From a virus (lineage: Duplodnaviria > Caudoviricetes): a stretch of 64,000 bases of DNA. The notes under the pieces were generated by a model. It was not told the DNA's origin. It made no database searches and was given only the letters and a program-made list of their open reading frames with translations. The first letter of the stretch is position 1, and every line of letters begins with the position of its first letter. The stretch spans positions 1 to 64,000 of IMG/VR virus record IMGVR_UViG_2901201504_000001; one strand, 5' to 3'. A program made the translations under genes and the position numbers. This document shows, piece after piece, positions 10,702-63,571 of the stretch.

Positions 10702-10714
10702 GGAATTCTCCTTT

Positions 10715-11719: not shown

Positions 11720-11733
11720 TTCAATACACCTCC

Positions 11734-12018
11734 TTAAATCGCTCTTTTTGAGATTACAAACTTATCTCTAGCATTTCCATTAATAAAAATAACCCAAACA
11801 TGATCCCCAATTTGGAAAGTCACATCAGGGTTACAAGATAGCGTTTGTGCTAAATCACTACCATCAACTTTTACTTTTAGCTTTGTATTAGAAATAATCT
11901 CTGTTACTTCGCCAAGATGCCATTGACCGTTCAGTAAACCAAACTTATCTAGAAGTTTAATAACTACTTTTTCAATATATTTATCAAATCGTTTTGCTCT
12001 TTCATTTTCTTGATTCAT
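11734..12018 (-). CDS. Small baseplate/tail protein (OB-fold-like)
   Basis: GEVTEI..KVKVDG..IGDHVWV pattern; in tail module. Confidence 0.55.
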   Translation of the reverse strand: MNQENERAKRFDKYIEKVVIKLLDKFGLLNGQWHLGEVTEIISNTKLKVKVDGSDLAQTLSCNPDVTFQIGDHVWVIFINGNARDKFVISKRAI

Positions 12019-12027
12019 AATAGCACC

Positions 12028-13197: not shown

Positions 13198-13212
13198 ACT
13201 TAATCTCCTTTC

Positions 13213-14070: not shown

Positions 14071-14116
14071 TTACATTCCTCCTTAAAATAAAAGAAGAGA
14101 GGGTAGTACCCTCTCA

Positions 14117-23100: not shown

Positions 23101-23359
23101 CTTTAATAGTTCCATCAAGTTCTTTAGTAATTGTTTTTTCTTCCCTAAGAACACGATTTAAATCTTGATTAATTTTCTTTTGATTCTCCATTGCTTTAGA
23201 GAAATCATTAAGTGTTTTCGTTACCTTGTCATCAATTTCAACTTTTAACTTAAGTTTATTGATTTTCTTTTCGATACCTTTTATTGCCGTATTAATATCA
23301 CCAATTGTAGTACCGACATTGAGTGTAGCTCCAATTAGAATTTTAATATCATTATTCAT
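14117..23359 (-). CDS. Tail tape measure protein with lytic transglycosylase (SLT) and M23 peptidase domains (YomI/CwlP-like)
   Basis: 3080 aa; TMP core; SLT IIKKESSFN..AKGLMQLMP..AYNAG; M23 HQGTDFA..YMHM..GAHLHLQI. Confidence 0.93.
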   Translation of the reverse strand: MNNDIKILIGATLNVGTTIGDINTAIKGIEKKINKLKLKVEIDDKVTKTLNDFSKAMENQKKINQDLNRVLREEKTITKELDGTIKENIRHHLKSGEIIQKEIERRNQKNKVIQQEAKNLNSLTENYNKLIKEVERYDKAGNLKGKTSTYTDPKGNARTITTDTKGNVIGYKDVENLEKFEKAQVQLRNSLIQLARTGKYTNDELKQIGKGINIATTLKELDQMKAKLNGLQISDSLSYGQDKLRNSLKQLYDQGKVNEQFFKNFNKVIDSSKNISEINKISDALKRVQQNANNKNLQTKLLSDAKTLLNSNAKGLDRIGLTSLIRDLQAVPPSAKNASNSLKQMESQLLNIKRASNEANKSNISLLNAVSQAAIKFPLWAGISTIFYTATNSVQALIDNIYALDLQLVSIEKVLNNSDISSVFDNATVAAFKYGQTIENTLKSLGEISKLGFDLGEAEELNNNSMLLSTVGEFKDATDAANYLVAIMRQYKLEVSDTVDVVNSLNSVSNQTGATTEGIAQALSKSSANAAMAGVSFHELTGMVSQTVETLKISGNEAGTFYKTLFSRYLREESQSMIEGLGIKTKEMSGELRSATDVLSDLGSQWETFDAQTKNAISSQLGGGWHVAKVTSLLEKQTRVAENTIFSMDSYNSAVNEMKVFEGGLEYQTNQMIASFQLLSQTIGDNGVRQLIVLLLNSVTSLTTGFARLTEMSHGLNIYLPLIAAGAYGAVKAFKALQLASWGVKASFGWIGLGVVAIELLAGAFMGSSKASDINTESLYKNAQATDNQRQRLEGLIAQYNELAPSAGNNAQKQEELQSVLQNIQQIAPHLIESTGEYGNALSLNKEKADQYIGTLKEMTKEQLLQASTANGIEINTVNVDLDEVNNDLKAVEDAVKQRFDSIQKYQKEHGVFGTNDADKEYVERTKQLNKELSKSIEDGSRERSDKIRSQLMQDEIEYRNYVNNMKDSSGQLVEYSENVAKVQELEGKKKGLEERQKAMDEMTNSLDSNSKANIENADALSNVDAKAKDTLTATLDTEAAMGDLSGSVDGASSSLEGMGDSATNAAGDMGELKTVAEQLTGISSQNISAMQEQIGVYQMLSEQENLSANMKTMLTNATNILSEAYPHLIDGKNLNILAMQEELDANNLLLQAVELSAEGQLSAQEQQTVNAALGAKARIEIIKQEIKALEEAQNVYLSRITAQNEHGGDDLRSEKNYMITQNKIGSLESELAKIKIPEFKGFKSKLEGIVNSTNRGTSATKGNTKSTKDNTKAKKDNKKATEENIEAYKNSIYVADAFKIKLDEINAALTKQNNLKAKFASHSENYRKALREEIKLLEKQKKLTQDEAKSLANQIKSGKIKETGVIDISNSVTSGSSKDKAPAGAYKGKYHAEINKAANTYGVDPFLIASIIKKESSFNSKAVSSAGAKGLMQLMPGTAKYLGVKNSFDPLQNIMGGTKYIAQMLAKTGGDIKKALIAYNAGMGNLNKVLNSKSGEWKEPKDYYNKVLSYYKDYTGANYSNGNKASKASTTPSPQSQSSNAKSVADYYFNNFKITSNLGDKESFRSKPHQGTDFANGKAGSPIKAVNSGKVLVSGWSDSAGNWVVVKQDDGTVAKYMHMLKKPDVKKGQRVDAGTILGKVGNTGDSYGAHLHLQIEANGKPIDAVKYLKQLQNTVNTGVSKVTDINYPTSEKTVADQLAAIDQAKAELLELNSDVSNLEQQILDLKDQIVQSYVDEFEYKKNIQKNKVQDLENRTYHLDTSSKEYRKNLEEQRKSVNEQQRINELEIKKVKYLLSLKEITAKKREELKGTLTDLMNERYEIADKRDATTLNIINSAMAEYAERVEKVDFLLGESEYNLSNYNDTSKEYRAELERQNELLYQKDTQLFYQIQALEEYLKKEKLTTEALKEKQKELAALKEAYRESTNSLKENANAKIEWTFRVSDKSIDDAVQKIEFIEYKMSLLSDDAGLEVKSGLFDEMNNELIKVNAELETAIQQTIKLRTETAVKGGDTGIFDDRLDSLLEQRRSNVQKLKQNYQDMLSNVEEAKSKIEEAESKANEEASKQFDKLLRDTEKNINAFQKIIDKANNSIELLETDQFTRKQELLGEALLATKNKANQIIAEFNQLRNVTVYSEEDAEALRSRLEQLKQELVDTNKSTIEYVKALEQVNFDSLTHEARLADAEIERLNNRLRSNMELLDGGLLSGTDLDFSFSIPQGSSLDLASFINDPISDIETEEIRIQNIRESSYGEQIRQAEAFHEQMKQQAEQYRMSLVEAEKQFQEAIQKQIEESDKKIADAKAKADKNDKNKAKLSQKEEKQQLEQHIKDIEAAMAVGLSNYSGAYSQQWDGVLKVLEQKLQEAKSKLDSLLAVEYQADNVNVPSDSNGGKKISKSPRANDKTYVPDRKPSKSPRAGGVPAYQKGTDSHNGGLALISEQGKELVVLPNGKTFVSSDNGAELVDLPKGSHVIPNKQTEMLLKSNSSPTVKNIPAYANGTWDWDRLMWDNEYWAAYLRGSDPQAYNQMMDNQNGYNSNDYYRDDQGYLIDKRDGSWVQPSYDVPYYSSDYTPPSNNYYEPSYNEPYYDYNDYYNGSSSNYYPDYNPAPYIPSADESAQSRLNELRSSKATVYSDKFVSKYDPYNKYGSIYENTRKGKQTSIKGLQQQLDAIENSSNTSDIKDLTEQILNKQNEISKEDMSFLIESLTDLSEQREKNARALKEELIRELESTDMTEEMRNQYREEIMRQDDIIAQSLKERKSLVGEMFEYEQKLREKRLHMIKEDEQNIQRIIAETKLNNPDDPKLIELNNQLLQQQAKYTGEIAKIRTELINQMKQYEVGSYEWNLLNQQLLQNEIGYQKDRLSNLDEENDKEERNIALKEKKDELEKVKKDKRFSIIDKDGNETLTYDKGKVADLEKEIADIEKQYRKDDIKEEYSKELALLEERLNNGIQMSPEQLAESQKYLDSLVEMYKKLNVKDVETKHSGGIIGDVPASPLQELVNKLFNTKPNEQIVKGQLGELMIPSKNIPNLFTNIGNLVNSIIPRNQPQAATVQHHYHFQDVTVKANNMDEFLGSLEHYNRTK

Positions 23360-45168: not shown

Positions 45169-47694
45169 CTAAACCGTTACAGACTTTTTAAATCGATACT
45201 CTCTAACCCTTTCTCTCGTTTGCTTTCTTTGAATTTCCTTCCAACAATGAGCACAATACTGACTTCTATTGTTAATCTTCTTTACACGCTTTCCACATTC
45301 ACTACACTGTATTGTATTCTTTAAGTTTTTTTGCAGGTTTTTAAGAATCACATCTCCAAAGGCTTCCCATAATGTTGTCTTATATTTACTTTTCTTTTCA
45401 ATATATAAGTATTTTATCAACATATCAGCAACTTGATTAATATTGCTATTTATTTCTAATAACTTATTTCTCAAATTATCATATATGTATATATTTGAGT
45501 CACTATGTTTAGATGATTCATGGTTTCTGAGTAATATATCTTTATTTCTATCGAATTCCTCATATGTCACTATGATTCTATCATCCACTTCTATGTCTTT
45601 ATCTAGAAAGAGTTTTTCTGGATTAAGAGTACCTGCAATATCTTCATATTTGATCCTTTTATTAGGAATAATTCTATTCAGTTTATTTACTGTACTATGA
45701 TTTATTTTAACGACATTTTTCTTTTTCTTATCTTTTGCGTAAACAAAGAAATGAGGAACTTTATCTTTTATATAATCTGAAATTTTTTCATCTACATGTT
45801 TCGGTCTAGTTGGCATAAACAATGTCTTAGCAAAATCAATAGTAAAGTTATTCTCCATACAAAGCCATTTGATAACATCTAGATTCACATTATCACTATT
45901 CCATATCTTAGTGATATTATTACTAATTTCTCCAATGTTGGCCTTATAAGCAAGAATCAAACTGTTATAGATATTTTCACTATTAATTTTCTGTGCTTCA
46001 GCTTTAGACATTTCATAATAAAGAGGAACTATGCCTTTCATGTTACGCTCTGCTACATTAATAAATGTCTCGTCTTGAATAACTAACGCTTTATCTCCAT
46101 CGTTATCGAATTGTAGCATCTTACTAATTGGATCAAGAACACTTGTGTAAATGCCATTTGTAATAAACCATTCAGTTTTATTTTCATCAATGACATTATT
46201 CTTAATCGCATGTTCACGATAGAGGTGAGGAGATCGTAATACATCTACTTTTCCTTCATGAAATAAATTACAGTAAATTTCATTATTATGTAGTAATCCT
46301 TTAGGTTCTTCAATGGCCATGAACAATTTCTCGCAAAATGCATATAAGTCAGGACATAAGAAAGTATACTTACCATTAATATTTAATTTACCTGCCCTTG
46401 CATCCCTTACCATGCTTTTTTTCTTATCTTTAATGGTTTGTTTTGCATGAGCATCATTCAATAGCTCAGGGTATATATATAATCCTCCTTGGAAATAGTT
46501 CTTATTTTTATTATGCTTTGTAGCACCTAATACACGTAACATTGTTTCTTTGTTACTACCTACAGAAAGAATATCATCTATTGTTGATGAGCTAATTTTT
46601 TCTAATTCTTCATCTGTAATATCTGTTAGAGTTTGCAACATTTGATAATTCAACATAGCATCATTGGAAGTATCTTCAACATTTAATTTAGCAGCTTGGC
46701 ATTTATGTTGCTTGAATCTACTTTTATAGTCATCCCAGTCCTCATAATATTTCCACATTTTAAATTGACTTTTAGTAAAAATAATCTGAATATCATCTTC
46801 AACAATATCCCATTCTTTATTATAGATATCGATCACTTTTGTTGAGGAATCGTCTAAAGATGAGAATTTTTTAAAGTCAAATGGTACTAACAAACCTTTA
46901 AGGAAGGGGAGTCTACACATAAAAGACTTTTTAGACTTAGAAGGCAGAATCATCCCACATCCGTCTGTATGTTCAATTTCAATATCCATAGTCTGTCTAG
47001 TTATCTCATATGTATCACGATTAATATAGTCAACTTCACTATAAACATCGGTAGCTAAATCAGGTACTACTATAGCTTTATCAATATTAAATCCTTTCCA
47101 TTCATTCGTTGCACTGTTGGTTAATGCTAGATAGCTTAAATATTTATTTACATTACTACCGCCCTTAGAATTGATTTCTTCCACAGATAAACCACATGTC
47201 AAAGAATCTTTATGTTTCAACCATACTGACTCTTTTATGAAAACACCTTTCTTTGTTCTAATTTGACCAGCAGAACTAGAGAAATAAACATAATGTTCTC
47301 CATTGTAATCAAAACCATCCGAAATTAAATCATTCAATACTTTATAGTGATAAGCTCTGATAGTAATAATGTCCATTGTGATTGTATTTTCTTTTGCTCC
47401 GATTGTTCTCGATAATGATGATTCAAAAATAGAAATTACATTGGAATCCTTAAGGTTGTCTTGGTTTAATCTACGGACATTCCTGTTCAGGTTGAATTCC
47501 TTTCTTAGATTTTTCTTCAATTCATTAACACGCTTATTAATTAATTTTATTTTTATCTTCTCTGACTTGTTTAATTTTTTCTTATGGATCAAGTATCTCA
47601 TCATTAAATTATGTATGAATGCTTCTTTTTTATTATAAAAAGCAGAAGTATCTACTGAGTATATGTAAACTTGTTTGTCCAATCCCTTAGCCAT
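45169..47694 (-). CDS. yonO: YonO-type single-subunit DNA-dependent RNA polymerase
   Basis: SSAGQIR, HTDGCG, RSPHL, catalytic FDNDGD; C-terminal CSEC..CAHC; heads the late operon. Confidence 0.92.
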   Translation of the reverse strand: MAKGLDKQVYIYSVDTSAFYNKKEAFIHNLMMRYLIHKKKLNKSEKIKIKLINKRVNELKKNLRKEFNLNRNVRRLNQDNLKDSNVISIFESSLSRTIGAKENTITMDIITIRAYHYKVLNDLISDGFDYNGEHYVYFSSSAGQIRTKKGVFIKESVWLKHKDSLTCGLSVEEINSKGGSNVNKYLSYLALTNSATNEWKGFNIDKAIVVPDLATDVYSEVDYINRDTYEITRQTMDIEIEHTDGCGMILPSKSKKSFMCRLPFLKGLLVPFDFKKFSSLDDSSTKVIDIYNKEWDIVEDDIQIIFTKSQFKMWKYYEDWDDYKSRFKQHKCQAAKLNVEDTSNDAMLNYQMLQTLTDITDEELEKISSSTIDDILSVGSNKETMLRVLGATKHNKNKNYFQGGLYIYPELLNDAHAKQTIKDKKKSMVRDARAGKLNINGKYTFLCPDLYAFCEKLFMAIEEPKGLLHNNEIYCNLFHEGKVDVLRSPHLYREHAIKNNVIDENKTEWFITNGIYTSVLDPISKMLQFDNDGDKALVIQDETFINVAERNMKGIVPLYYEMSKAEAQKINSENIYNSLILAYKANIGEISNNITKIWNSDNVNLDVIKWLCMENNFTIDFAKTLFMPTRPKHVDEKISDYIKDKVPHFFVYAKDKKKKNVVKINHSTVNKLNRIIPNKRIKYEDIAGTLNPEKLFLDKDIEVDDRIIVTYEEFDRNKDILLRNHESSKHSDSNIYIYDNLRNKLLEINSNINQVADMLIKYLYIEKKSKYKTTLWEAFGDVILKNLQKNLKNTIQCSECGKRVKKINNRSQYCAHCWKEIQRKQTRERVREYRFKKSVTV

Positions 47695-47763
47695 TAAATC
47701 CCTCACATTCGCTTTATTTCTAAAATTTCATTCTATTTATTTTTTTAGTTATTTAACTTTTAA

Positions 47764-47988: not shown

Positions 47989-48101
47989 TTATATTTCATC
48001 TCCTTTATTAATATTAATTTATTTAACTTTTATTTATCATAACGGACATATCCTAATTTTGTAAAGTGTAATTTTAATTTTTCTGAAAAAAATTTACAAA
48101 G

Positions 48102-48131
48102 TCATAAGTACAAGCAGATATTACATAATCT
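48102..48131 (+). promoter_or_regulatory. Putative sigmaE promoter of wHTH-tubulin operon
   Basis: TCATAAG-N15-CATAATCT versus B. subtilis sigmaE consensus TCATATT-~15-CATACGAT. Confidence 0.55.
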
Positions 48132-48180
48132 TTGAATATCTTTAAGAATCTACAAAGATTTTTAAAAATCTATACAGATA
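48111..48180. repeat. 10-bp periodic direct repeats (tubC-like iterons)
   Basis: AATCTTTGAA/TATCTTTAAG/AATCTACAAA/GATTTTTAAA/AATCTATACA in tandem just before the RBS. Confidence 0.65.
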
Positions 48181-48193
48181 CAGGAGGATTTTC

Positions 48194-48475
48194 ATGGATT
48201 ACTTTGTTCACACTGTACTCAAATCTAGTCAAGAAGAGTTAGTATTGCTCAATGTATTAAATGAACATCAGGCTTACAATACTTATACATTTCTAACAAA
48301 GCAACAAATCAAAGACCAATCACATTTATCCGAATCAATTGTAAGAAAAACTCTGCTCATATTAGAAAGACTTCAATTTATTAATTCAATTTGCACGAAC
48401 AAAACAAAAGGGTACTATCTTACGAATCATGGTTTATTAGCAATTGAAAAAATCCTAGAGGGAGTGAATGAATAA
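48194..48475 (+). CDS. Winged-helix DNA-binding protein (TubR-like adaptor)
   Basis: LTKQQI..LSESIVRKTLLILERLQFI..YYLTNHG wHTH; stop/start coupled to tubulin. Confidence 0.75.
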   Translation: MDYFVHTVLKSSQEELVLLNVLNEHQAYNTYTFLTKQQIKDQSHLSESIVRKTLLILERLQFINSICTNKTKGYYLTNHGLLAIEKILEGVNE

Positions 48476-49581
48476 TGATAGGTGTAATTGGTTTAGGTCA
48501 AGCTGGAGGAAATGTTGCAAACTTATTTGCCGAAAGAGGAATTCAAACTGCTGCAATTAACTATTCATCCAAAGACCTAGAGACTTGTAATCACATAGAA
48601 AACAAATTAAAACTCATTGGATCAGAAGGAGTTGGTAAACAAAGAGAGGAAGCAATTCGACTATTTCACAACAATTATGAATCAGCTTTAATATTCATTA
48701 AAGAGCATTTCTCACAACCTTCTGTTGAATTAATCTTTATTGTTTTTAGTGCGGCAGGAGGGAGTGGAAGTGGTATAGCTTCAATATTATCCGAGCTACT
48801 ACTCAACGAAATGCAGGAAAAAACTTTCATAATTTGCCCCATCATTCCTACTGTCTCAGAGTGCATTACAGCGCAATTAAACACTCTAGATACATTGACT
48901 AGCCTAAGTGAATTAGAAGCCTGTATCATTCCATTGGACAACGAGAAGGGGATGTCTAAGGGCGCTAAAGACAAATCTTACCACTTTATAAATCAGACGT
49001 TTGTAGACACTATTTTAACGATAGCTGACTACACTAATATGCATTCAATCACAGGAAACTTTGATGCAAGGGACTTGCGTACATTGTTGTCTACAACTGG
49101 ATTCTGCTCAATTGGACAATGTGACATTTCACATCTAAAGAATGAAGACATATCCGTAAATATCGAAGTTGTATCTAAAAAAGTAAGAACATCGCATTTT
49201 GAGTCAATCTTCACATCTCCTTCATTGGAACAAATAGTACGATCAGGCTTAATATTTGATGGGCAAGAATCATTAATGTATTGTGTCGATCTTGATAAAA
49301 TTCACAATCAATTTCCCAATCAACCTTTGGATGTTTTTGAAGGCTATTATACAGAAGAAAAAGGGAGAGTAATATCTATTTACTGTGGTTTAAAATTTAA
49401 CAGTACAAGATTAAATCAGATTGAAAAATTAGCAACTGAACGAATAGAATCTTTCCAAAACACTCATCAAAGCACATCTATATCCATAAAAAGACCAACT
49501 CTTAAAAGCCCAATTATGTCATCTAAACCTAAGAAATCGCTATCTGATATTCTAAATAAACACAAGAAAACTAATATATAA
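48475..49581 (+). CDS. Tubulin/FtsZ-superfamily GTPase (TubZ-like)
   Basis: GLGQAGGN, G.G (GVGK), signature AAGGSGSG, DNE, T7 loop GNFDARD; basic C-terminal tail. Confidence 0.9.
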   Translation: MIGVIGLGQAGGNVANLFAERGIQTAAINYSSKDLETCNHIENKLKLIGSEGVGKQREEAIRLFHNNYESALIFIKEHFSQPSVELIFIVFSAAGGSGSGIASILSELLLNEMQEKTFIICPIIPTVSECITAQLNTLDTLTSLSELEACIIPLDNEKGMSKGAKDKSYHFINQTFVDTILTIADYTNMHSITGNFDARDLRTLLSTTGFCSIGQCDISHLKNEDISVNIEVVSKKVRTSHFESIFTSPSLEQIVRSGLIFDGQESLMYCVDLDKIHNQFPNQPLDVFEGYYTEEKGRVISIYCGLKFNSTRLNQIEKLATERIESFQNTHQSTSISIKRPTLKSPIMSSKPKKSLSDILNKHKKTNI

Positions 49582-49590
49582 AAATAGTAA

Positions 49591-49732
49591 ATTATCATTA
49601 CCCGTCAGTTTACCTGATACTTTATTTTCATTACCTAATCGTTACCCATTATCATTACCAGTTGATTTTACAATATCGGTAATTACCCAAACAGCAGGTA
49701 ATGGAAAATCGGTAAGTATAAAACGTTGGTAA
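49591..49732. repeat. TTACC/GGTAA repeat array
   Basis: TTACC at 49598, 49610, 49631, 49642, 49655, 49683; GGTAA at 49678, 49697, 49711, 49728; ATTATCATTACC occurs twice. Confidence 0.7.
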
Positions 49733-49780
49733 TAAACCTTTAGATTTAATTTTCACATATAATTCTTCCTTAAATAAAAT

Positions 49781-49841
49781 GAAAAAAGAAGTTTGAGTTT
49801 CAGTTGTAAATTTTCTTCTGAATTCAAGCTTCTTTTTTTTG
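49781..49841. terminator. Long imperfect hairpin, probable bidirectional terminator
   Basis: AAAAAAGAAGTTTGAGTTTTCAG...CTGAATTCAAGCTTCTTTTTTTT. Confidence 0.6.
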
Positions 49842-49845
49842 AAAT

Positions 49846-50022
49846 TTATTCAATGATTCCTACTTCATGTAAAAATGTTAAAAGTTCATGTAATCTTTTT
49901 CTGCTCATTCCTGTTTTTTCTATTACATAATCAGAGGTGAATTCCAACTTCTCTTCAAACTTAGGAGGCTCGTATGTACCCCATGAACCAATTGACATAT
50001 GTCCACGTACATTTTCACTCAT
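49846..50022 (-). CDS. Small protein with HTH-like C-terminus (58 aa, not in ORF track)
   Basis: RBS GGGAGG; MSENVRG...VIEKTGMSRKRLHELLTFLHEVGIIE. Confidence 0.55.
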   Translation of the reverse strand: MSENVRGHMSIGSWGTYEPPKFEEKLEFTSDYVIEKTGMSRKRLHELLTFLHEVGIIE

Positions 50023-50102
50023 TTACCTTTGCCTCCCTTGTTCGTTCTATCTAAAAAATCATTTACTGCATCTCTTGGATCTTGTTTGTAAATAAATGAC
50101 AT
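50019..50102 (-). CDS. 27-aa peptide coupled to downstream HTH-like gene
   Basis: RBS GGAG; MSFIYKQDPRDAVNDFLDRTNKGGKGK; ATGA overlap. Confidence 0.35.
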   Translation of the reverse strand: MSFIYKQDPRDAVNDFLDRTNKGGKGK

Positions 50103-50165
50103 GTTTTCCAACTCCGTTTATAATTATCTTAATAGTAGTCTTACCTCAAGGAGTTGACGTTATAC

Positions 50166-50597
50166 ATGAAAGAAAAAGTTACTTTAACCGTAGATATAAC
50201 TATGAAAAACTATGTAAATATTAAAAATCTCATTGGTTATTGTAAGTACAACAACTTGATTATCAGCGAAAATTTACCTACCACTGACGAAGAAATAATT
50301 AATGCTGCACTATTTTCTTACTTTGAGAAGATTGAAACAATCGTAAGATATTATAATGTGGATAAATCAGCATTGAATTTAGAAGAAGGAACAAAAATTA
50401 AAAATAGGATAAAAGAAATATTAAAGATGACTGGTATGAAACAGAAAGAATTATCTGAATTAACAGGTATTGAAACAGCTACATTATCTGCAATGTTATC
50501 TAACAGAAACCAACCATCAATCGAAAACTTTTTGCGTATATGGACTGTGTTAGGGTGTCCACCAATTGAAGAAGTATTCTACAGAGAGAAGGAGTGA
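50166..50597 (+). CDS. XRE-family transcriptional regulator (C-terminal HTH)
   Basis: KNRIKEIL..MKQKELSELTGIETATLS..NQPS. Confidence 0.85.
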   Translation: MKEKVTLTVDITMKNYVNIKNLIGYCKYNNLIISENLPTTDEEIINAALFSYFEKIETIVRYYNVDKSALNLEEGTKIKNRIKEILKMTGMKQKELSELTGIETATLSAMLSNRNQPSIENFLRIWTVLGCPPIEEVFYREKE

Positions 50598-50640
50598 TCC
50601 TTCTTTTTTGTTGTTTGTAGATTTTTTTAAAATTTATTAT

Positions 50641-50670
50641 ACATAGTACAATCAACGTCATCCATATACT
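50641..50670 (+). promoter_or_regulatory. Putative sigmaE promoter of membrane protein/FtsK operon
   Basis: ACATAGT-N15-CATATACT, same spacing as the promoter at 48102. Confidence 0.5.
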
Positions 50671-50696
50671 TAATCAAACAACCGGAGGTGATTAAC

Positions 50697-50879
50697 ATGA
50701 TGTTTGCAACTGTATTAGCTTTGAAAATTGGAGCATTAGGAAGTGTGGGTGTAGGAATTGCAAGTGCATTAAAATTATTTCATAACTACGAATGGAAACA
50801 ATCATCTAAGAAAGGTGTGAAATATGATGACAACTATGACAGTGAATCTTTGCGTGAAAAAGCAAGACGAATTAATTAA
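50697..50879 (+). CDS. Small membrane protein
   Basis: RBS GGAGGTG; N-terminal hydrophobic helix. Confidence 0.65.
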   Translation: MMFATVLALKIGALGSVGVGIASALKLFHNYEWKQSSKKGVKYDDNYDSESLREKARRIN

Positions 50880-51393
50880 ATACAATGATTTTAATCAATT
50901 TGTTTTTCGACAAACTGAGGAGAGTACCAATGTAAATTTTCATTTACCAACAATAAAGGAGGTGAAAAGTTTACCAAAGAAAACGAAAAAGAAATTTCAC
51001 AAAATTGCAGTATCATTTCTAGCAACTGTAGCAACTTACATGGTATCCGCATCAAAATCAATGGCAAGTACTGTACTGCCATCAACATCAAACGACATCA
51101 TAAACATTCCGGCAACAGCACAGGGACTTCCTCCAGAACTTATGCAGATATTCGGAACAGGTCTAGTAATATTAGTAGCTGTAGCAGTTCTACTTTGCAT
51201 GGCAATGTTGATGGGAGCAGGCCTATTAAGAGCAATGAGGAAGAAAAAAGAAGCGAGCGAATGGACAGGAGACATCATAAAAGGATTAGTTCAAGTACTT
51301 TTAGCACCACCAATCATATTTTTAATCTTCTATATAGCAACAATCCTGTTCACCGGTTCAAGTTGGTTCATCAATCCTTTCGTAATACGCTAA
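50824..51393 (+). CDS. TrbC/VirB2-pilin-like membrane protein
   Basis: Signal-like segment ending SMA, then two TMs separated by RKKKEASEWTGDIIKG, a pilin-like topology. Confidence 0.5.
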   Translation: MMTTMTVNLCVKKQDELIKYNDFNQFVFRQTEESTNVNFHLPTIKEVKSLPKKTKKKFHKIAVSFLATVATYMVSASKSMASTVLPSTSNDIINIPATAQGLPPELMQIFGTGLVILVAVAVLLCMAMLMGAGLLRAMRKKKEASEWTGDIIKGLVQVLLAPPIIFLIFYIATILFTGSSWFINPFVIR

Positions 51394-52496
51394 AAAAGGT
51401 AGCTATCCCATTTGCAGTATTATCTACATCCTCACTATTATTTACATTAAAAGCTTCTGCTGAATCTTTTTGGGAAAGAGGGGATATCACAAAACATGGT
51501 TTATTTAATAAAGAGAATATCTTAGAACGTGGCGGATCAATTCAGGAATTTAAAGATGTTACTGAAAAGCTAGGTATGATTCTCGATAAAATCATTAAAG
51601 GAATGGATTGGATTGCATACGCTTGGTATCATCCTGATGAAATGTCTATTAAACTCCTAACATCTATCTACGAAGTACTAACTAAAGTCGTACTAACTAC
51701 CCCTACATTCATTTTCAATAATACTTTCATTCAAAGCATTTCATTAAAATTCTCATTAATTAGCATTGTTATAGTCACTGCTTTAACTATCGTTGAATCA
51801 ATTATGCAAATTACAAGACAAAAACATACGAAAATCAAAACAATTATAAAACGCTATTTTGGAGTGGTTACTGTTACTGGTTTTGCTCCATTCTTATTTG
51901 AAAAAGGCTTTGACTTTATTAACAAATTAACTTCATCAATTATTTCATTAGGTGGAGATTTCAGCAGAGCTACTACCACTGTGCAAACTATGGGAATGGC
52001 AAATCTGGATGTGTTAATTATGTTTGCATTTGATATTACTCTTTTAGCTATGTTAATTCCTATAATGCTTCAAAACGGTAGACGATGGTGGGATTTAATG
52101 TGTTTATCTGCAACTGCACCAATAGCCGGAGTCGCATTTGTATTTGATCGATACAGACATTACTTTGATTCCTGGTGGAGTTCGGTAAAACGTTTATCAA
52201 TGATTCAATTAGTGTATGGTGTGTTTATCACTTTACTAGGTGTATTTATTTTTGCCACTAGAGATATGGTCACAGGTTGGGAATTGATTATCAAATTACT
52301 TATAGCAGCAGGAGGAATGTGGAGATTATTAAATCCACCAAGAATAGTTCTGAATTTAACACAAGGAGACGGTAAAGATGTATTCAACATGTATGACGAC
52401 TATAAATCTGGAGCTAAAAAAGTCATTGATACTGTTACATTCAAAAACTTTAGACCTGTCAATTTCATCAAAAGTAAATTAAAAAAGAATAAATAG
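51363..52496 (+). CDS. Polytopic membrane protein, TrbL/VirB6-like (start uncertain)
   Basis: Signal peptide ending KASA, five to six TMs, RWWDL..ATAPIA..YFDSWWSS pattern as in VirB6/TrbL. Confidence 0.55.
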   Translation: MVHQSFRNTLKKVAIPFAVLSTSSLLFTLKASAESFWERGDITKHGLFNKENILERGGSIQEFKDVTEKLGMILDKIIKGMDWIAYAWYHPDEMSIKLLTSIYEVLTKVVLTTPTFIFNNTFIQSISLKFSLISIVIVTALTIVESIMQITRQKHTKIKTIIKRYFGVVTVTGFAPFLFEKGFDFINKLTSSIISLGGDFSRATTTVQTMGMANLDVLIMFAFDITLLAMLIPIMLQNGRRWWDLMCLSATAPIAGVAFVFDRYRHYFDSWWSSVKRLSMIQLVYGVFITLLGVFIFATRDMVTGWELIIKLLIAAGGMWRLLNPPRIVLNLTQGDGKDVFNMYDDYKSGAKKVIDTVTFKNFRPVNFIKSKLKKNK

Positions 52497-52508
52497 TGAG
52501 GTGTTAGC

Positions 52509-52622
52509 ATGATAACCTTATTAGTTTGCAATACAATAATGCTCATCATAAATTCATTTGTCTTATATGTAAACAGTGACTTAATAAGCAAGGTGATGGA
52601 AGATGATAAGAATAGGTACTAA
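52509..52622 (+). CDS. 37-aa single-TM peptide (not in ORF track)
   Basis: RBS GAGGTG; MITLLVCNTIMLIINSFVLYV...; overlaps FtsK start. Confidence 0.45.
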   Translation: MITLLVCNTIMLIINSFVLYVNSDLISKVMEDDKNRY

Positions 52623-54843
52623 ACCAAATAAAACCATTCAGAAAAACAGCAATTTTACGTATAAATTAGATGTATTTCATGACAAATTGATACAAAAGTA
52701 TATGGATTCCGACCATATTTCAACTAACATATACGGTTTTGAAATACTATCAAATTCTGAAATATACACTTTTACACCTACCTTAGATCGATTAGAATAC
52801 TCAATTGTAGAACAAGATTTATCCACTTATTTTAACTCAAATACTTTGCAATTATATGAAATACAAATGAAAAATCCTTTGTTTCTTCCTATATATAATA
52901 AATTCCAACAATCTCTCATAGAGCAAATATTCAATATCCAACAAAGCTATCCTGTTCTCATCCAAATCTTAATACAAAAAATAAATAAATGGAGAGATAA
53001 TGCAATCTCACAGTATGAAGAATTCTTGAAGGGGAATGATTATCCATCTGAAAATAGGATTCTTAGAAATACACAAAGCAAGATCATAAATGTGCTTAAT
53101 AAATTCGCTAACTTCCAAGTGAAAAGAAAACCGATTCAAGACGTAGAAGATAAAATTCTTAGTGATAACTTTAAGATTGAAATACGCTTTGCTATAGAAG
53201 ACAATGAGGGAGAATTTGAGTTAACAATTAATAAATTTCTAAAACAATATGATTACTATAATCAATTAGAGCTAGTCAAAATATATGATGTAGATAGTCA
53301 AATACAATTGATTAAAAATAGACAAATGAAGTCATATACACTTAATCAATTGTCCACTTCAGAAATTAATTCTCTCTTTTCATCTGATAAGTCAGATATT
53401 ACTCCTAAACAAGAAGTAATGATAACGTCCAATAGAAAAAGTCAACAAACAAGTAATCCTGAACAATATAATCATTTACTTGATGTGCTACCGAAATATG
53501 AAAAACAATCAAATGATATTGATAATGAAATAGTTGATAGATTGATACAAAGCTTCAAACGTACAAAAATAACGAACAAATTAATAAAAATAGGTGAGGT
53601 AGCAAGAGGAGCAACATTGCAAAAAGTTACTCTAAAAATCCCTAATGATATAGTCTATACGAACATTGAGAAGAATCTAAAGAATATACAGGCCACATTG
53701 GGTAATGATGCAATTAGTATGGAAATTAGCGATACTCCTGACTCTGTAGATTTCTATATTCCATGTAGTGAAAGAGAAGTAGTTTATTTACGAAATGTAT
53801 TAGAATCAGACGAATTTATTGAGCAAGTAACTGAATTAACTTTGCCATTAATATTAGGTGAAGATAGCATAGGTAAACCATTGCTTTCTGATTTAGCAGA
53901 GTTAAAGCATATTCTTATAGCAGGAGCAACTGGTAGTGGTAAATCAGTATTTCTTAATGCATTGATACTTACTATGATTATGTACAAAGAACCTGGGGAA
54001 TTAAAGCTGATACTTATTGATCCAAAGAAAGTAGAACTAGTGCCATTTAGTAAGTATCCTCAAGTTACCTTTGTAGACGATATGAATAAAGCAACAAATA
54101 CATTTGAGACATTAATCAATGAGATGAATAAACGTTACGATACTTTTGCAAGTAAAGGATGTAGGAATATTGCTCAATACAATTCTAAGTTAGACATAAA
54201 AGTACCATACTTAGTTTGTATTGTAGACGAATTATCAGATTTAATGGATACGCATGGTAATGAAATTGAATCACATATTATAAGATTAGGTCAGAAAGCT
54301 AGAGCAGCAGGTATACATTTAATATTATGTACACAGAAACCTTCAGTAGATGTTATTACAAGCAGGATAAAGAGTAATTTACCAAGCGCCATTAGCTTTA
54401 GATTGAAAGCACAGAGCGACTATAGAACTGTATTTGGTAAAGGTATTCCTTATCATCTATTAGGAAAAGGTGATGGAGTAGCGATGTTAGAAGGGAATAG
54501 TAAAGAGTTTATTAGGTTTCAATCACCTGTCATTGATCTTGATGACAATACAACCGTAGATATTATTGATAAGATAGCAGATACCTATGAAGGAATTCAA
54601 CATGAACCAATAAAAATTATTGAAACTGAAGAACCGATTGATAAACTAAAGCGTATTATAGCTAGTACAGGTGAGACTAGGATATCTGAATTACAAAAAG
54701 AGATGAAAATAAGGATTAATCTAGTCTCAGAATTAATGAAGCAGTTGGTTACCGAGGAATGGGTAATTAAAGAAGGAAAAGGATATAAGATAATTGTTAG
54801 TGAGAATGAGTTAGATAAATGGAGGGAAGTTGCTGAACAGTGA
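52603..54843 (+). CDS. FtsK/SpoIIIE-family DNA translocase lacking N-terminal TMs
   Basis: Alpha domain, HILIAGATGSGKS, IDPKKVEL, CIVDE, RAAGIHLILCTQKP, LLGKGD; C-terminal gamma-like wHTH (ISELQKEMKIRIN). Confidence 0.92.
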   Translation: MIRIGTKPNKTIQKNSNFTYKLDVFHDKLIQKYMDSDHISTNIYGFEILSNSEIYTFTPTLDRLEYSIVEQDLSTYFNSNTLQLYEIQMKNPLFLPIYNKFQQSLIEQIFNIQQSYPVLIQILIQKINKWRDNAISQYEEFLKGNDYPSENRILRNTQSKIINVLNKFANFQVKRKPIQDVEDKILSDNFKIEIRFAIEDNEGEFELTINKFLKQYDYYNQLELVKIYDVDSQIQLIKNRQMKSYTLNQLSTSEINSLFSSDKSDITPKQEVMITSNRKSQQTSNPEQYNHLLDVLPKYEKQSNDIDNEIVDRLIQSFKRTKITNKLIKIGEVARGATLQKVTLKIPNDIVYTNIEKNLKNIQATLGNDAISMEISDTPDSVDFYIPCSEREVVYLRNVLESDEFIEQVTELTLPLILGEDSIGKPLLSDLAELKHILIAGATGSGKSVFLNALILTMIMYKEPGELKLILIDPKKVELVPFSKYPQVTFVDDMNKATNTFETLINEMNKRYDTFASKGCRNIAQYNSKLDIKVPYLVCIVDELSDLMDTHGNEIESHIIRLGQKARAAGIHLILCTQKPSVDVITSRIKSNLPSAISFRLKAQSDYRTVFGKGIPYHLLGKGDGVAMLEGNSKEFIRFQSPVIDLDDNTTVDIIDKIADTYEGIQHEPIKIIETEEPIDKLKRIIASTGETRISELQKEMKIRINLVSELMKQLVTEEWVIKEGKGYKIIVSENELDKWREVAEQ

Positions 54844-54931
54844 CTTCTCTTATTTTTGTATAGTAGGTGTATATATGTGAAGGTGAAAAATTGGATTTAA
54901 AATAAGCCCCCTTATAAAGGAGGCTTTTCTA

Positions 54932-55627
54932 CTATCTATAAACTGATTTAGGAATATTTGCTTTTGGGTTTCCTACAGCATAAGGTGCTAATTCATATTC
55001 TTGATAAATCACACTTATTCCTGTATTAGTGAAAATGAAAGTTGTACCCTTATTTAGTTTTATGTCCTTAACAGTAATATCATCAAACATGATATCTTGT
55101 TTTTTGAGAAAATTATAGATATGTTGCTTTGTCTTTTGTGCCTTAGCTGGCTTAACTACATCTGGTATTGTAACTAGTTTACCAGTTTTGATGTTAAAGT
55201 TATATGATTGAACAAATCTACCGCCATGAACTCCTCCAGTGTACATATCAGTATAGACTAACACACTAATATAATTACTGTCTTGGTAAGCTAGTTTGAA
55301 TGTAGTTTTATAACGATACTGACATGAAAATGGAAATTCACTACAATATTCTTCATCATAATTCTCTTCCATTGAATTCATTAGTGCGTTATAACCATCA
55401 TAGTGTCCTTTTCCCACTTGACGAAAGAAGAGATTGATATTGTGTTGTATTTGAGTATTTTTAATTCCTGATAATTTAGGATAAGCAATGTTTTTGTTAC
55501 CTTTGTAATACACCGTTTCTGTCTTAATAGGATTAGAAGCTGCATTAGCCTGTATTACTGAAGTAGAAAATAGACCAATTGCAAATACTAACAGAATAAT
55601 AACTCTTAGAAATTTGATGTTCTTCAT
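54932..55627 (-). CDS. Secreted DUF4163/DUF3298 (RsiV/PdaC-like) protein
   Basis: Signal peptide ending ANA; IAYP..YTGGVHG..YNFN..YQEYELAPYAVG. Confidence 0.8.
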   Translation of the reverse strand: MKNIKFLRVIILLVFAIGLFSTSVIQANAASNPIKTETVYYKGNKNIAYPKLSGIKNTQIQHNINLFFRQVGKGHYDGYNALMNSMEENYDEEYCSEFPFSCQYRYKTTFKLAYQDSNYISVLVYTDMYTGGVHGGRFVQSYNFNIKTGKLVTIPDVVKPAKAQKTKQHIYNFLKKQDIMFDDITVKDIKLNKGTTFIFTNTGISVIYQEYELAPYAVGNPKANIPKSVYR

Positions 55628-56106
55628 TATGTATCCTCCTTTTTTATTATAAACTATTACAGTATATAGTAAAAATGTCCTAAATAAAAGATATATGTTT
55701 ATAAAAAATAGATTTATAAAGAAGAGTCTATCTATACTATGACTCGAAGCTGAAAATAACGACACTCGAACGATGGTGTATAAAGTGATAAAAATGTAGT
55801 GTTTATAAGAGATTTCGGTAGTTTAGGTGAGATTGAAAGGTGACTCGATAGGCTGAACTCGTAGAAACGTTGATGTACCAATGGTTTGAGCGTGTTTTTG
55901 GAGTGGAATTAGTGAAATTTTAGTGAGTTGAGTAGTGGAAAAGTCAATGTTTATAAGGGGTTTACGAGTCACTTTTCGAGTGTAATTTAGGTGAAAATGA
56001 GGTGATTTTAATTCTGAGTGAGATTATGGGAATAGGGTGATAAAATATAATTTAGTGATTAGGAAAATTATTGTGGTGTGGAAATGGAAGTGCTACGGCT
56101 CTATAC

Positions 56107-57277: not shown

Positions 57278-57499
57278 ACAACAAACGTGATTATGGGACG
57301 ATTATAGTCATTATGGTCGTTCCTTTTTCTTTAAACATTAATAAATAAAAGTTAATTAAATTAAAATAATAGTATACATCACTACCGAAGTATTGTATAA
57401 TTAATACATAAGATAAAGAGAGGAATTAATAAGCATTTAACTAAAATATCTCAATGTCTTACAATTAATACTAAATTAATTTAAAAGGAGTTAATTAAA

Positions 57500-59687: not shown

Positions 59688-59897
59688 CTATAAATAGATG
59701 TAGCAGTTTGTATAGAACTACCACGGAAGTGCTGTGGTAGTTTTCTTTTCGCTTTGCAGCTCAAAGGGATATACTATAATAATTTTAAAAATAAAAGTAA
59801 AATAATTTAAAATAATAATTTACATTTATAACCTAATCATGTATACTTAAGATAGTTAAAAGATACAAGTTAATACATATAAAGGGGATATGTTAAC

Positions 59898-63319: not shown

Positions 63320-63449
63320 ATAATTTTTTCTAATTTATAATAACATGAATGTTTATAATATTTACTCATACTCATAATAAAACAGATATTTTATTATTTT
63401 TGATCAATTGACTAGCTGAAAATGCTAGTTTTTTCTTTGTATTTTATAA

Positions 63450-63538
63450 TAAATAAAAGTTAAATAAACTAATATAAATATATTGTTTTATATTTATATA
63501 GATGGTATAATTTAGTTAATAAATAAAAGTTAAATAAA
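63450..63538 (+). promoter_or_regulatory. sigmaA promoter flanked by two identical 19-bp operator-like motifs
   Basis: TAAATAAAAGTTAAATAAA at 63450 and 63520 around TTGTTT-17-TATAAT (with extended TG). Confidence 0.65.
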
Positions 63539-63571
63539 TACATATTAACTATTTAAAAGGGAGCGGTTAGA

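What the first reader, a model, noticed from the sequence alone, without database searches (positions are those of the whole stretch)
48102..54843. Candidate sporulation-coupled DNA segregation/transfer system: tubulin pair plus pilin/VirB6-like proteins plus FtsK, under sigmaE-like promoters
Seen: a compact block of wHTH, tubulin, repeat array, XRE regulator, four membrane proteins and an FtsK ATPase. Both operons start with mother-cell sigmaE-like promoters of identical 15-bp spacing (48102, 50641). Established: SPbeta-family prophages in sporulation genes excise in the mother cell, which later lyses; kamA is a mother-cell gene in B. subtilis. Inference: the block could position and export the excised prophage circle from the doomed mother cell, to the forespore or to a neighbouring cell, without virions. 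I know of no described system with this composition.
Basis: partly seen in the sequence, partly recalled or inferred. Interest (0 to 1): 0.9.

Follow-up and report, generated by a model that had tools for sequence, protein, structure and literature searches.

The report
Conserved phage TubZ–VirB6–FtsK DNA-moving cassette
An SPbeta-like prophage carries a gene cassette, shared with many Bacillus phages, that joins a plasmid-type DNA-positioning filament to a membrane channel-like protein set and a DNA pump, and probably moves phage DNA inside or between host cell compartments.

Summary
The block is real and its genes belong together. It holds TubR and TubZ with 10-bp iterons, a convergent TTACC/GGTAA array, a small antisense gene and an XRE regulator. 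Four membrane proteins and a soluble FtsK-type translocase follow.

The 368-aa membrane protein has a TrbL/VirB6 fold. The "pilin" resembles a pilin in architecture only.

The cassette is conserved. All 28 IMG/VR FtsK loci carry the membrane genes. 27 of them have an actin-like ParM pair where this prophage has TubRZ, and one has TubZ. Four Bacillales genomes repeat the TubZ version. SPbeta and phi3T lack it.

The pentamer array, the antisense gene and a TM peptide overlapping the ftsK start are conserved across both versions.

The sigmaE-like promoters exist. They are 2 of only 3 promoter-placed matches in 137 kb. Sigma dependence is untested.

Best reading: a phage cassette that positions phage dsDNA and pumps it at a septum or membrane, plausibly for spore entrapment.

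Earlier scan notes concern this same genome only.

The parts
48102..48131 (+). Promoter-like site P1: TCATAAG-N15-CATAATCT (-35 ATA, -10 CATA...T)
   Evidence: Read. It is one of 3 promoter-placed matches to the relaxed mother-cell pattern in 137 kb. A weak sigma70-like match (TTTACA-18-GATATT, 9 of 12) overlaps it.
48127..48171 (+). 4.5 copies of a 10-bp iteron (AATCTTTAAA): candidate tubC centromere and operator
   Evidence: Tandem Repeats Finder. A similar ATATCTTT motif lies upstream of tubR in L010.
48194..48475 (+). TubR-like winged-helix adaptor (93 aa)
   Evidence: The profile of 5 homologues matches TubR 4asn_A at E 4.8e-28 and 6tey_A at 2.7e-7.
48475..49581 (+). TubZ-like tubulin/FtsZ GTPase (368 aa)
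   Evidence: Pfam Tubulin 1.4e-13. The profile matches phage c-st TubZ 4xcq/3v3t at E 2e-34 and 6e-34. 128 relatives were found.
49591..49732 (.). Convergent pentamer array: TTACC x6, palindrome GGTAATTACC (49678-49687), GGTAA x4. Candidate loading or recognition site for the FtsK winged helix or the small antisense protein.
   Evidence: The same architecture occurs in L010 and in ParM-type phages.
49846..50022 (-). Conserved small antisense protein (58 aa, HTH-like), strong RBS
   Evidence: A homologue or analogue sits at the same place and orientation in 16 of 16 cassette loci examined. Cross-type HMM E 1.6e-4 to 0.03. 48% identity in L078.
50154..50597 (+). XRE-family regulator (147 aa) with its own sigmaA-like promoter (ATGACA-17-TATAAT, 50096-50124) and a terminator (50583-50608)
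   Evidence: Pfam HTH_26/HTH_3 about 1e-8. Promoter and terminator scan. Present in TubZ-type relatives L010, L058 and L078.
50641..50670 (+). Promoter-like site P2: ACATAGT-N15-CATATACT, between the XRE terminator and gpA
   Evidence: No sigma70-like site is listed in 50609-50687.
50688..50879 (+). gpA: 63-aa single-TM protein, DUF7394
   Evidence: Pfam DUF7394 2.9e-7. The same family occurs in Hobo and L010.
50824..51393 (+). gpB: 189-aa protein with a basic leader, an AxA site and two TM helices (pilin-like architecture)
   Evidence: phrog_3528 1e-31. Alignment A7. 0 of 16 members hit Pfam pilin families. Atlas pilin clusters score only 0.83-0.84.
51390..52496 (+). gpC: about 368-aa polytopic membrane protein with a TrbL/VirB6 fold (start codon uncertain)
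   Evidence: phrog_3750 6.7e-72. Atlas gives TrbL clusters at 0.93. 5 of 63 relatives hit TrbL_4. AF2 pLDDT 84. The top 8 Foldseek PDB hits are TrwI/VirB6.
52509..52622 (+). gpD: 37-aa TM peptide whose stop overlaps the ftsK start
   Evidence: Found by my filter in 25 of 28 distinct relatives. Alignment A5.
52603..54843 (+). Soluble FtsK/SpoIIIE-type dsDNA translocase (746 aa): novel N-domain, alpha/beta motor, C-terminal winged helix. Terminator at 54822-54851.
   Evidence: Pfam 2e-47 and phrog_3551 1e-190. FtsK motor 2ius 8e-58 and, by profile, 1.5e-90. AF2 pLDDT 81. Foldseek FtsK TMt 0.79-0.86. Terminator.

Best explanation
The block is one copy of a conserved accessory cassette of large Bacillales phages. 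The cassette positions the phage's own double-stranded DNA and pumps it at a membrane or septum.

Shown:
- The cassette has a partition unit. Here it is TubR/TubZ with upstream iterons. Most relatives have an Alp7A/ParM-like actin plus adaptor instead.
- A convergent TTNCC repeat array follows, then a small antisense protein.
- Next comes an operon of a DUF7394 peptide, a leader-plus-two-helix protein, a TrbL/VirB6-fold protein and a tiny TM peptide.
- That peptide's gene overlaps the start of a soluble FtsK-type dsDNA motor, which suggests translational coupling. The motor ends in a winged helix.

Inferred mechanism:
- The filament pushes the unintegrated or excised phage genome to a pole or septum.
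- The membrane proteins anchor the TM-less FtsK there.
- FtsK hexamers load on the two opposed repeat sets and pull both DNA arms through.

The most likely use is to get phage DNA into the forespore (a 'virospore'), or to keep it on the right side of a closing septum. The CATA-type promoters fit expression in a sporulating mother cell, but that is unproven.
For: Co-conservation:
- 28 of 28 IMG/VR FtsK loci carry gpB and gpC just upstream. 27 of 28 also have ParM plus an adaptor 3-4 kb upstream, and 1 of 28 (L058) has TubZ with YonO. The 28 loci are not de-replicated; they give 24 distinct parM-upstream sequences.
- TubZ-type repeats in L010, L012, L023 and L078 hold the order TubR-TubZ-...-gpC-FtsK at only 31-42% protein identity.
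- An actin replaced by a tubulin at the same position argues that the filament works with the rest of the cassette.

Parts:
- TubZ and TubR.
- gpC is VirB6/TrbL-like.
- The FtsK motor is closest to true FtsK, then to the pCW3 coupling protein TcpA, then to EssC.
- The FtsK has no TM segment (read by eye from the sequence). gpD overlaps its start in the window and in nearly all of the 25 of 28 distinct relatives where gpD was found.

Cis elements shared by ParM- and TubZ-types:
- The array reads TTACC in the window, L010, Hobo-type loci and L065.
- It reads TTTCC in SIOphi, Goe14 and L046-48.
- It reads TCTCCC in L058.
- So the binder is a protein common to both types, not TubR or ParR.
- An M23 peptidase sits in some cassettes of both types.

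Regulation:
- The membrane-FtsK operon lies between two terminators. Its only promoter candidate is the CATA type.
- ParM-type cassettes carry a unique GTACAGRCA-N17-19-CATA element, once per genome in each of 3 phages. It occurs in 12 of 24 distinct upstream sequences, and 7 of 24 fit the relaxed sigmaE-like pattern, against a background of 0.10 per kb per strand.
- No sigma70-family gene was found in this provirus, in Goe14 or in SIOphi.

Host range:
- gpC was found in 162 phage records, 160 of them named Bacillus.
- The four named genomes with the TubZ-type cassette are Nanhaiella and Paenibacillus.
- That these hosts form endospores is recalled knowledge, not a call.
Against: No expression, localisation or binding data exist.

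On the promoters:
- Sigma dependence is inferred from a loose motif that I fitted after seeing the sites. The motif is not enriched genome-wide.
- 12 of 24 ParM-type upstream regions lack the conserved element, and 17 of 24 lack the relaxed pattern.
- TubZ-type relatives do not consistently keep the pattern. It is upstream of tubR in 2 of 4 relatives and upstream of gpA in 2 of 4.
- A weak sigma70-like site overlaps P1.

On the DNA-pump reading:
- The C-terminal winged helix has no sequence match to FtsK gamma domains.
- TTACC shows no genome-wide polarity beyond compositional skew.
- The arrays are not visible in L012, L023, L044 or L057.
- No VirB4-type ATPase, relaxase or VirB8-like gene is in the block, so this is not a standard T4SS.
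- One TubZ locus at 40% identity (L011) has only a weak FtsK-like hit and no gpC.

On the lysogen:
- In a lysogen the forespore already inherits the prophage. Spore entrapment would then help only during infection.
Confidence: 0.5

Rival explanations
1. SigmaE drives both operons in the mother cell after developmental excision of the prophage. The machine then exports the excised circle to the forespore or to a neighbouring cell without virions.
For: - CATA-type promoter candidates sit before both operons.
- The prophage abuts a radical-SAM (kamA-like) fragment and a serine recombinase.
- Passages of PMC6957869 say kamA belongs to the sigmaE regulon and that phi3T excises from kamA at about hour 3 of sporulation.
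- The VirB6-like protein plus FtsK-type motor resembles conjugative dsDNA transfer.
Against: - The same cassette is in strictly lytic Bastillevirinae, which have no prophage circle.
- SPbeta and phi3T, the phages for which developmental excision is known, lack it.
- The forespore already holds the prophage.
- SigmaE dependence is untested.
Confidence: 0.12
2. Episome maintenance only. TubZRC or ParMRC segregates a plasmid-like or pseudolysogenic phage genome. The FtsK-membrane complex only clears or resolves phage concatemers or dimers trapped by division septa. Nothing passes to another compartment.
For: - The partition units are genuine.
- FtsK's textbook role is to clear DNA from septa (recalled knowledge).
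- Phage c-st, the closest solved TubZ relative, is a plasmid prophage (recalled; match).
Against: - This does not explain the VirB6-fold protein, the leader-plus-two-helix protein, or the M23 peptidase found in some cassettes.
- The SPbeta-like members integrate: a recombinase sits at the end of this provirus, and passages on Goe14 report integration. Other members are lytic phages.
Confidence: 0.2
3. Exclusion, defence or host takeover. The membrane complex and FtsK motor expel or block incoming foreign DNA, or manipulate the host chromosome. This would fit the variable accessory region between yonO and the arbitrium genes.
For: - The region is variable among SPbeta-like phages and holds different cargo in SPbeta and phi3T.
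- The FtsK motor matches FtsK-like domains of the defence proteins SspH (8.6e-53) and mad8.
Against: - The PADLOC hits are at domain level only. The other eight proteins gave either no hit or only generic HTH hits.
- A partition filament with a centromere and a phage-borne recognition array points to the phage's own DNA as the substrate.
Confidence: 0.1
4. A type VII-like protein secretion unit built on an EssC-type ATPase.
For: EssC, EccC and YukB are among the matches.
Against: - FtsK matches are far stronger (1.5e-90 against 1e-30 to 1e-42).
- The protein has one ATPase domain, not three.
- EssC scores 106 bits against a cut-off of 778.
- No WXG100-like hit appears among the block's proteins.
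Confidence: 0.03
5. Unrelated neighbours. The partition pair and the FtsK operon are independent cargo that happen to lie side by side.
For: They are separate transcription units, with a terminator and an XRE gene between them.
Against: The linkage is kept in 28 of 28 viral loci and 4 bacterial loci, across 31-42% identity, with a swap of filament type.
Confidence: 0.05

Closest known systems
TubZRC type III partition systems (Clostridium botulinum phage c-st; Bacillus plasmids)
   Same: TubR winged helix, TubZ tubulin-like GTPase and iterons next to the operon. The best solved matches are TubZ 4xcq/3v3t and TubR 4asn.
   Different: Here the unit lies in an integrating SPbeta-like prophage. 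It is fixed to a membrane-FtsK operon and a second repeat array. In relatives an actin-type unit replaces it.
FtsK/SpoIIIE septal dsDNA translocases with KOPS/SRS guidance
   Same: Alpha/beta motor at 31-33% identity, TMt 0.79-0.86. It has a C-terminal winged helix and a polar repeat array that could guide loading.
   Different: It has no N-terminal membrane domain, and instead a conserved soluble N-domain of about 260 aa with no known relative. The winged helix is not detectably a gamma domain. The repeats are clustered in one locus and show no genome-wide polarity.
Streptomyces TraB / clt / Spd dsDNA conjugation (recalled from knowledge)
   Same: An FtsK-like motor with a C-terminal winged helix, a clustered repeat locus near the gene, and small membrane proteins in the operon. 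There is no relaxase.
   Different: TraB NCBIfam scores 57 bits against a cut-off of 800. The host is a phage of Bacillota. A VirB6-fold protein and a cytoskeletal partition unit are present.
Gram-positive type IV secretion, e.g. the pCW3 Tcp locus (TcpA coupling protein, TcpH VirB6-like, TcpG hydrolase; the components other than TcpA are recalled)
   Same: FtsK-like coupling ATPase (TcpA 6o1x E 2.6e-20, TMt 0.67). VirB6-fold membrane protein. An M23 hydrolase in some cassettes.
   Different: The block has no VirB4-type ATPase, VirB8-like protein or relaxase.
FtsK/SpoIIIE and ParM genes noted in Bastille-like Bacillus phages
   Same: The same FtsK family at 34-38% identity. The genes were noted singly in passages of PMC3853049, PMC4528723 and PMC3601020.
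   Different: Those passages call the function unknown or 'sporulation-related'. They do not describe the membrane genes, the array, the antisense gene or the TubZ version.

Membership tests
TubZRC partition system | Tubulin/FtsZ-fold GTPase of the TubZ clade | tested here: met
   Pfam Tubulin 1.4e-13. The profile's best PDB hits are TubZ 4xcq and 3v3t at E about 1e-34 over nearly the full length.
TubZRC partition system | TubR winged-helix adaptor encoded just upstream | tested here: met
   The profile matches TubR 4asn at E 4.8e-28. The genes overlap by one base.
TubZRC partition system | Centromere of short iterons bound by TubR | tested here: inconclusive
   4.5 x 10-bp iterons lie upstream of tubR. 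Binding is not testable here, and a second array lies downstream.
FtsK/SpoIIIE translocase | RecA-like alpha/beta motor with Walker motifs | tested here: met
   Pfam 2e-47. 2ius 1.5e-90. Foldseek TMt up to 0.86. GATGSGKS and VDE motifs were read by eye from the sequence.
FtsK/SpoIIIE translocase | N-terminal transmembrane anchor | tested here: not met
   No hydrophobic segment by eye. The model shows a soluble alpha/beta N-domain at 17-260.
FtsK/SpoIIIE translocase | Gamma domain that reads polar DNA motifs | tested here: inconclusive
   A winged helix is predicted at 678-745. It has no sequence hit to solved gamma domains at E up to 1.
Conjugative type IV secretion system | VirB6/TrbL polytopic membrane protein | tested here: met
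   The 8 best Foldseek PDB hits are TrwI/VirB6, best E 2.3e-3, prob 1.0, TMt 0.50. 5 of 63 relatives hit TrbL_4, best 6.7e-9. Atlas TrbL clusters score 0.93. The window protein itself has no Pfam hit.
Conjugative type IV secretion system | VirB4-type ATPase and relaxase | tested here: not met
   None appears among the block's ORFs by Pfam or PHROGs. The rest of the provirus was not searched for them.
Conjugative type IV secretion system | VirB2/TrbC-type pilin | tested here: inconclusive
   gpB has a leader, an AxA site and two helices. 0 of 16 members hit a pilin family at E up to 5. Atlas scores only 0.83-0.84.
Type VII secretion (EssC/EccC) | Multi-domain FtsK-like ATPase over the family cut-off, with WXG100 substrates | tested here: not met
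   EssC scores 106 bits against a cut-off of 778. The protein has a single ATPase domain.
SigmaE/sigmaK (mother-cell) promoters | -35 ATA (sigmaE) and shared -10 CATA...T at the proper spacing. Motif as in passages of PMC3789822 and PMC517825; the exact consensus letters are recalled. | tested here: met
   Both sites fit.
SigmaE/sigmaK (mother-cell) promoters | Transcription that depends on sigE or sigK | not testable with these tools
   No RNA holder was listed.
Known anti-phage defence systems (PADLOC) | A full set of system proteins | tested here: not met
   Only domain-level FtsK hits (SspH, mad8) and generic HTH hits.

The most novel reading that the evidence does not exclude
Large Bacillus phages, both lytic and temperate, carry a private DNA-delivery machine that needs no virion. 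A cytoskeletal filament brings the phage genome to the sporulation septum or to a sister-cell septum. A VirB6-like conduit with an FtsK motor then injects it, starting at a convergent repeat 'origin'. In effect this would be conjugation from mother cell to forespore, and it would create phage-carrying spores.
Probability: 0.2. Interest if true: 0.9.

Novelty: new variant of a known kind. Interest (0 to 1): 0.65.

Why it matters
How large lytic and temperate Bacillus phages get their genomes into spores is an old open question. Passages of PMC9429907 describe 'entrapment' producing a 'virospore', and give only phi29 as an example of a phage that prioritises entrapment.

This cassette offers a concrete, testable candidate machine. 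It has defined genes and cis sites, and several of the phages that carry it infect Bacillus subtilis.

It is also a clear case of an actin-type filament swapped for a tubulin-type filament inside one conserved module.

It would also be the first phage-borne pairing of a VirB6-fold protein with an FtsK motor that I could find.

Tried and rejected
Searches that found nothing:
- TubZ by tblastn against 50,697 phage records gave no match.
- The search for related loci with the single FtsK protein found no relative. An alignment then worked.
- No RNA holder was listed for 48000-54900.

Tests with a negative or unclear result:
- Genome-wide polarity of TTACC cannot be told from permuted-pentamer controls.
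- The heptamer CATTACC looks skewed (9 to 2 on the left, 2 to 10 on the right), but the counts are small and in the same direction as the background skew.
- gpB as a pilin by sequence: 0 of 16.
- The FtsK winged helix as a gamma domain: no hit.
- The gpC profile against PDB sequences placed TrwI second, at E 0.42 only.
- Ten of the most distant gpC relatives, scanned singly, gave only one TrbL hit at E 0.1. I did not identify which 5 of the 63 members carry the TrbL_4 hits.
- The sigma70-type scan gave 36 sites against 39.6 expected, so there is no enrichment.
- The third sigmaE-like hit, at 135846 of the provirus, precedes a 144-aa coiled-coil ORF. I could not identify it as an excision factor.
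- The repeat finder for a reported 19-bp promoter motif found AT-rich repeats only downstream of the block.
- Foldseek of the whole FtsK model was dominated by the motor and says nothing about the N-domain.

Not seen:
- Supplementary tables of PMC517825 and PMC3789822 hold lists of mapped sigmaE and sigmaK promoters. They could have given a proper weight matrix. Supplements are closed and I did not see them.

Rows dropped:
- L051 was left out of alignment A6 because its frame holds a stop.
- Near-identical loci were left out of A5, A6 and A7.
- The tallies count distinct sequences only.

Full report
CONTEXT

The window is the first 64 kb of a 137,119-bp IMG/VR provirus. It is SPbeta-like.
- A YonO-type RNA polymerase at 45169-47706 is 59% identical to that of SPbeta-group phages.
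- A PhoH/PIN protein and an HU-like protein lie beside it.
- The record starts with a radical-SAM ORF fragment followed by a large serine recombinase. This fits insertion in a kamA-like gene, which I did not test further.
- Passages of PMC6957869 say kamA belongs to the sigmaE regulon and that phi3T excises from kamA at about hour 3 of sporulation.

THE OBSERVATION

- TubR and TubZ are genuine. The TubZ family profile finds phage c-st TubZ (4xcq, 3v3t) at E about 1e-34. A five-member TubR profile finds TubR 4asn at 4.8e-28.
- 4.5 copies of a 10-bp iteron lie between the promoter-like site and tubR.
- Downstream of tubZ are six TTACC, the palindrome GGTAATTACC and four GGTAA. That is 10 copies in 150 nt against 0.32 expected, the densest cluster in the provirus.
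- A 58-aa gene with a strong ribosome-binding site lies on the minus strand.
- The XRE gene has the best sigma70-like promoter of the region (11 of 12 positions) and its own terminator.
- The last operon lies between that terminator and one after ftsK. It encodes a DUF7394 peptide, a 189-aa protein, a protein of about 368 aa, a 37-aa TM peptide whose stop overlaps the ftsK start, and FtsK.

WHAT THE PROTEINS ARE

- The FtsK has no membrane segment. Its model (pLDDT 81) shows a soluble N-domain, a disordered linker, the motor and a C-terminal helix-helix-helix-strand-strand winged helix.
- The motor is closest to true FtsK: profile E 1.5e-90, Foldseek TMt 0.79-0.86 at 31-33% identity. Next comes the pCW3 coupling protein TcpA, then EssC/EccC.
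- The winged helix has no sequence match to solved gamma domains.
- The 368-aa protein has no Pfam hit itself. Its family is small, with 122 representative clusters among 1.84 billion proteins.
- 5 of 63 of its relatives hit TrbL_4, best 6.7e-9. The Atlas's nearest clusters are TrbL/VirB6 at 0.93, and all ten of the best family-bearing hits share that family or clan.
- A confident model of it (pLDDT 84, pTM 0.72) has TrwI/VirB6 of R388 as its eight best PDB matches, best E 2.3e-3, probability 1.0, TMt 0.50.
- The 189-aa protein has a basic leader, an AxA site and two hydrophobic helices, like VirB2/TrbC pilins. No member hits a pilin family, 0 of 16.

CONSERVATION

The membrane-FtsK operon is a known set of PHROG families.
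- By tblastn the FtsK is in 373 phage records. The VirB6-like protein is in 162, of which 160 are named Bacillus.
- In lytic Bastillevirinae (SIOphi, Hobo) and in the SPbeta-like Goe14, the same small-to-large membrane genes precede ftsK. A ParM-type actin (ALP_N, MreB-like_C, Alp7A_C) with a small adaptor lies 3-4 kb upstream.
- In 28 IMG/VR loci fetched with an FtsK alignment, 28 of 28 have gpB and gpC, 27 of 28 have ParM plus adaptor, and 1 of 28 (L058) has TubZ, XRE and a divergent YonO, like the window.
- Of 29 bacterial loci fetched with the TubZ alignment, five have TubZ at 39% identity or more.
  - Three of these (L010 Nanhaiella; L012 and L023 Paenibacillus) have TubR-TubZ-...-gpC-FtsK.
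  - One (L011) has only a weak FtsK-like hit.
  - One (L013) is too short to tell.
- The other 24 loci, at 24-33% TubZ identity and mostly Clostridia, have none.
- A scan of 401 genomes of the order of L010's host found TubZ in 5. The one close relative with flanking DNA (L078) again has TubR, TubZ, an M23 peptidase, the antisense gene (48% identical), XRE, gpC and FtsK.
- SPbeta and phi3T lack the cassette and carry other cargo at this place.

NEW CONSERVED ELEMENTS

- A minus-strand gene of about 53 aa with a shared C-terminal motif sits between the array and the membrane operon in 16 of 16 loci examined. Across the two cassette types, profile E-values are 1.6e-4 to 0.03 for a nominal 5,000 sequences.
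- The TM peptide was found in 25 of 28 distinct relatives, with its stop overlapping the ftsK start in nearly all of them.
- Right after the adaptor or TubZ stop, most cassettes have 3-6 direct copies of TT(T/A/C)CC followed by inverted copies.
  - TTACC occurs in the window, L010, Hobo-type loci and L065.
  - TTTCC occurs in SIOphi, Goe14 and L046-48.
  - TCTCCC around GGGAGATCTCCC occurs in L058.
  - I saw none in L012, L023, L044 or L057.
- The array is shared by actin-type and tubulin-type cassettes. Its binder should therefore be a shared protein, either the FtsK winged helix or the antisense protein. This is an inference.

PROMOTERS

- Passages of PMC3789822 and PMC517825 describe a -35 ATA for sigmaE, AC for sigmaK, and a shared CATA-type -10. 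The full consensus letters that I used are recalled.
- Both sites fit, with 15-bp spacers.
- The relaxed pattern is not enriched overall, but 2 of its 3 promoter-placed hits are these sites.
- My stricter sigmaA scan found nothing before gpA and only a distant weak site before tubR. The tool's scan lists a 9-of-12 site overlapping P1 and none before gpA.
- ParM-type cassettes have a conserved GTACAGRCA-N17-19-CATA element after a terminator and before GTAATACAAAG iterons.
  - It occurs once per genome in Goe14, Hobo and SIOphi, with reversed-pattern controls at 0.
  - It occurs in 12 of 24 distinct upstream sequences.
  - 7 of 24 fit the sigmaE-like pattern, against 0.10 per kb per strand in the same loci.
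- This provirus, Goe14 and SIOphi have no sigma70_r2 gene, while Hobo has two just upstream of parM. So a host sigma factor is the likely reader in the first three.
- TubZ-type relatives keep the pattern only in part.
- I put sigmaE/K dependence at about 40%.

INTERPRETATION

- The conserved order, the actin-for-tubulin swap and the shared cis elements argue for one machine acting on phage DNA.
- A TM-less FtsK whose gene start overlaps that of a TM peptide, and which sits next to a VirB6-fold protein, suggests a membrane-docked dsDNA pump.
- Opposed repeat sets would let two motors load on both arms of a looped or circular genome. This step is inferred.
- The cassette occurs in lytic and temperate Bacillus and Paenibacillus phages. 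That makes forespore entrapment, or protection of phage DNA at septa, more likely than export of an excised prophage circle.
- Known defence systems and type VII secretion do not fit.

LITERATURE

- Genome papers note FtsK/SpoIIIE and ParM singly and call the function unknown (passages of PMC3853049, PMC4528723 and PMC3601020).
- PMC9429907 discusses entrapment without these genes.
- The Goe14 preprint has no occurrence of FtsK or ParM.
- Four searches found no paper that treats the cassette as a unit. Subscription journals are not covered.

LIMITS

- No RNA holder was listed.
- Earlier scan notes concern only this genome.

Noticed in passing
window 45169-47706 (-): YonO-type single-subunit RNA polymerase, divergent from the cassette. 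In several SPbeta-like phages the match comes in two pieces with an inserted ORF, annotated as a GIY-YIG nuclease in BUCT083. Here it is uninterrupted.
   Followed up: partly
provirus 135846-136332 (L072:3847-4333): The third promoter-placed sigmaE-like match in the provirus precedes a 144-aa coiled-coil ORF near the right end. A 186-aa ORF follows it. It could be a developmentally expressed gene such as an excision factor. Not identified.
   Followed up: partly
L072:997-2643 (provirus 132996-134642): A 548-aa ORF sits next to a 163-aa ORF. By eye it looks like a thymidylate synthase with a large internal insertion, followed by a dihydrofolate reductase. Not searched.
   Followed up: no
window 14117-23359 (-): A single 3,080-aa ORF in the structural region.
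   Followed up: no
window 54932-55765 (-): A secreted PdaC/DUF3298 protein converges on ftsK and shares a bidirectional terminator region with it. It was not searched for in relatives.
   Followed up: no
window 57339-57404, 59784-59850, 63447-63548: Repeated AT-rich motif of 30-67 nt (TAATAAATAAAAGTTAA...) before several downstream genes. These may be a phage-specific promoter or operator class, and they differ from the cassette promoters.
   Followed up: no
L002:645-2186 (phage Hobo): Two sigma-70-family genes lie directly upstream of the parM cassette in this lytic phage. PMC3601020 calls the homologues in Bc431v3 sigF/B- and sigG-like.
   Followed up: partly
L011 (Chengkuizengella marina) 10001-17812: TubZ at 40% identity, but only a weak FtsK-like hit (27%) and a weak ParM-like hit (20-23%) downstream, and no gpC hit. 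This may be a divergent or degraded cassette.
   Followed up: no
L051:9905-12238: The ftsK frame of this IMG/VR phage contig contains one in-frame stop.
   Followed up: no
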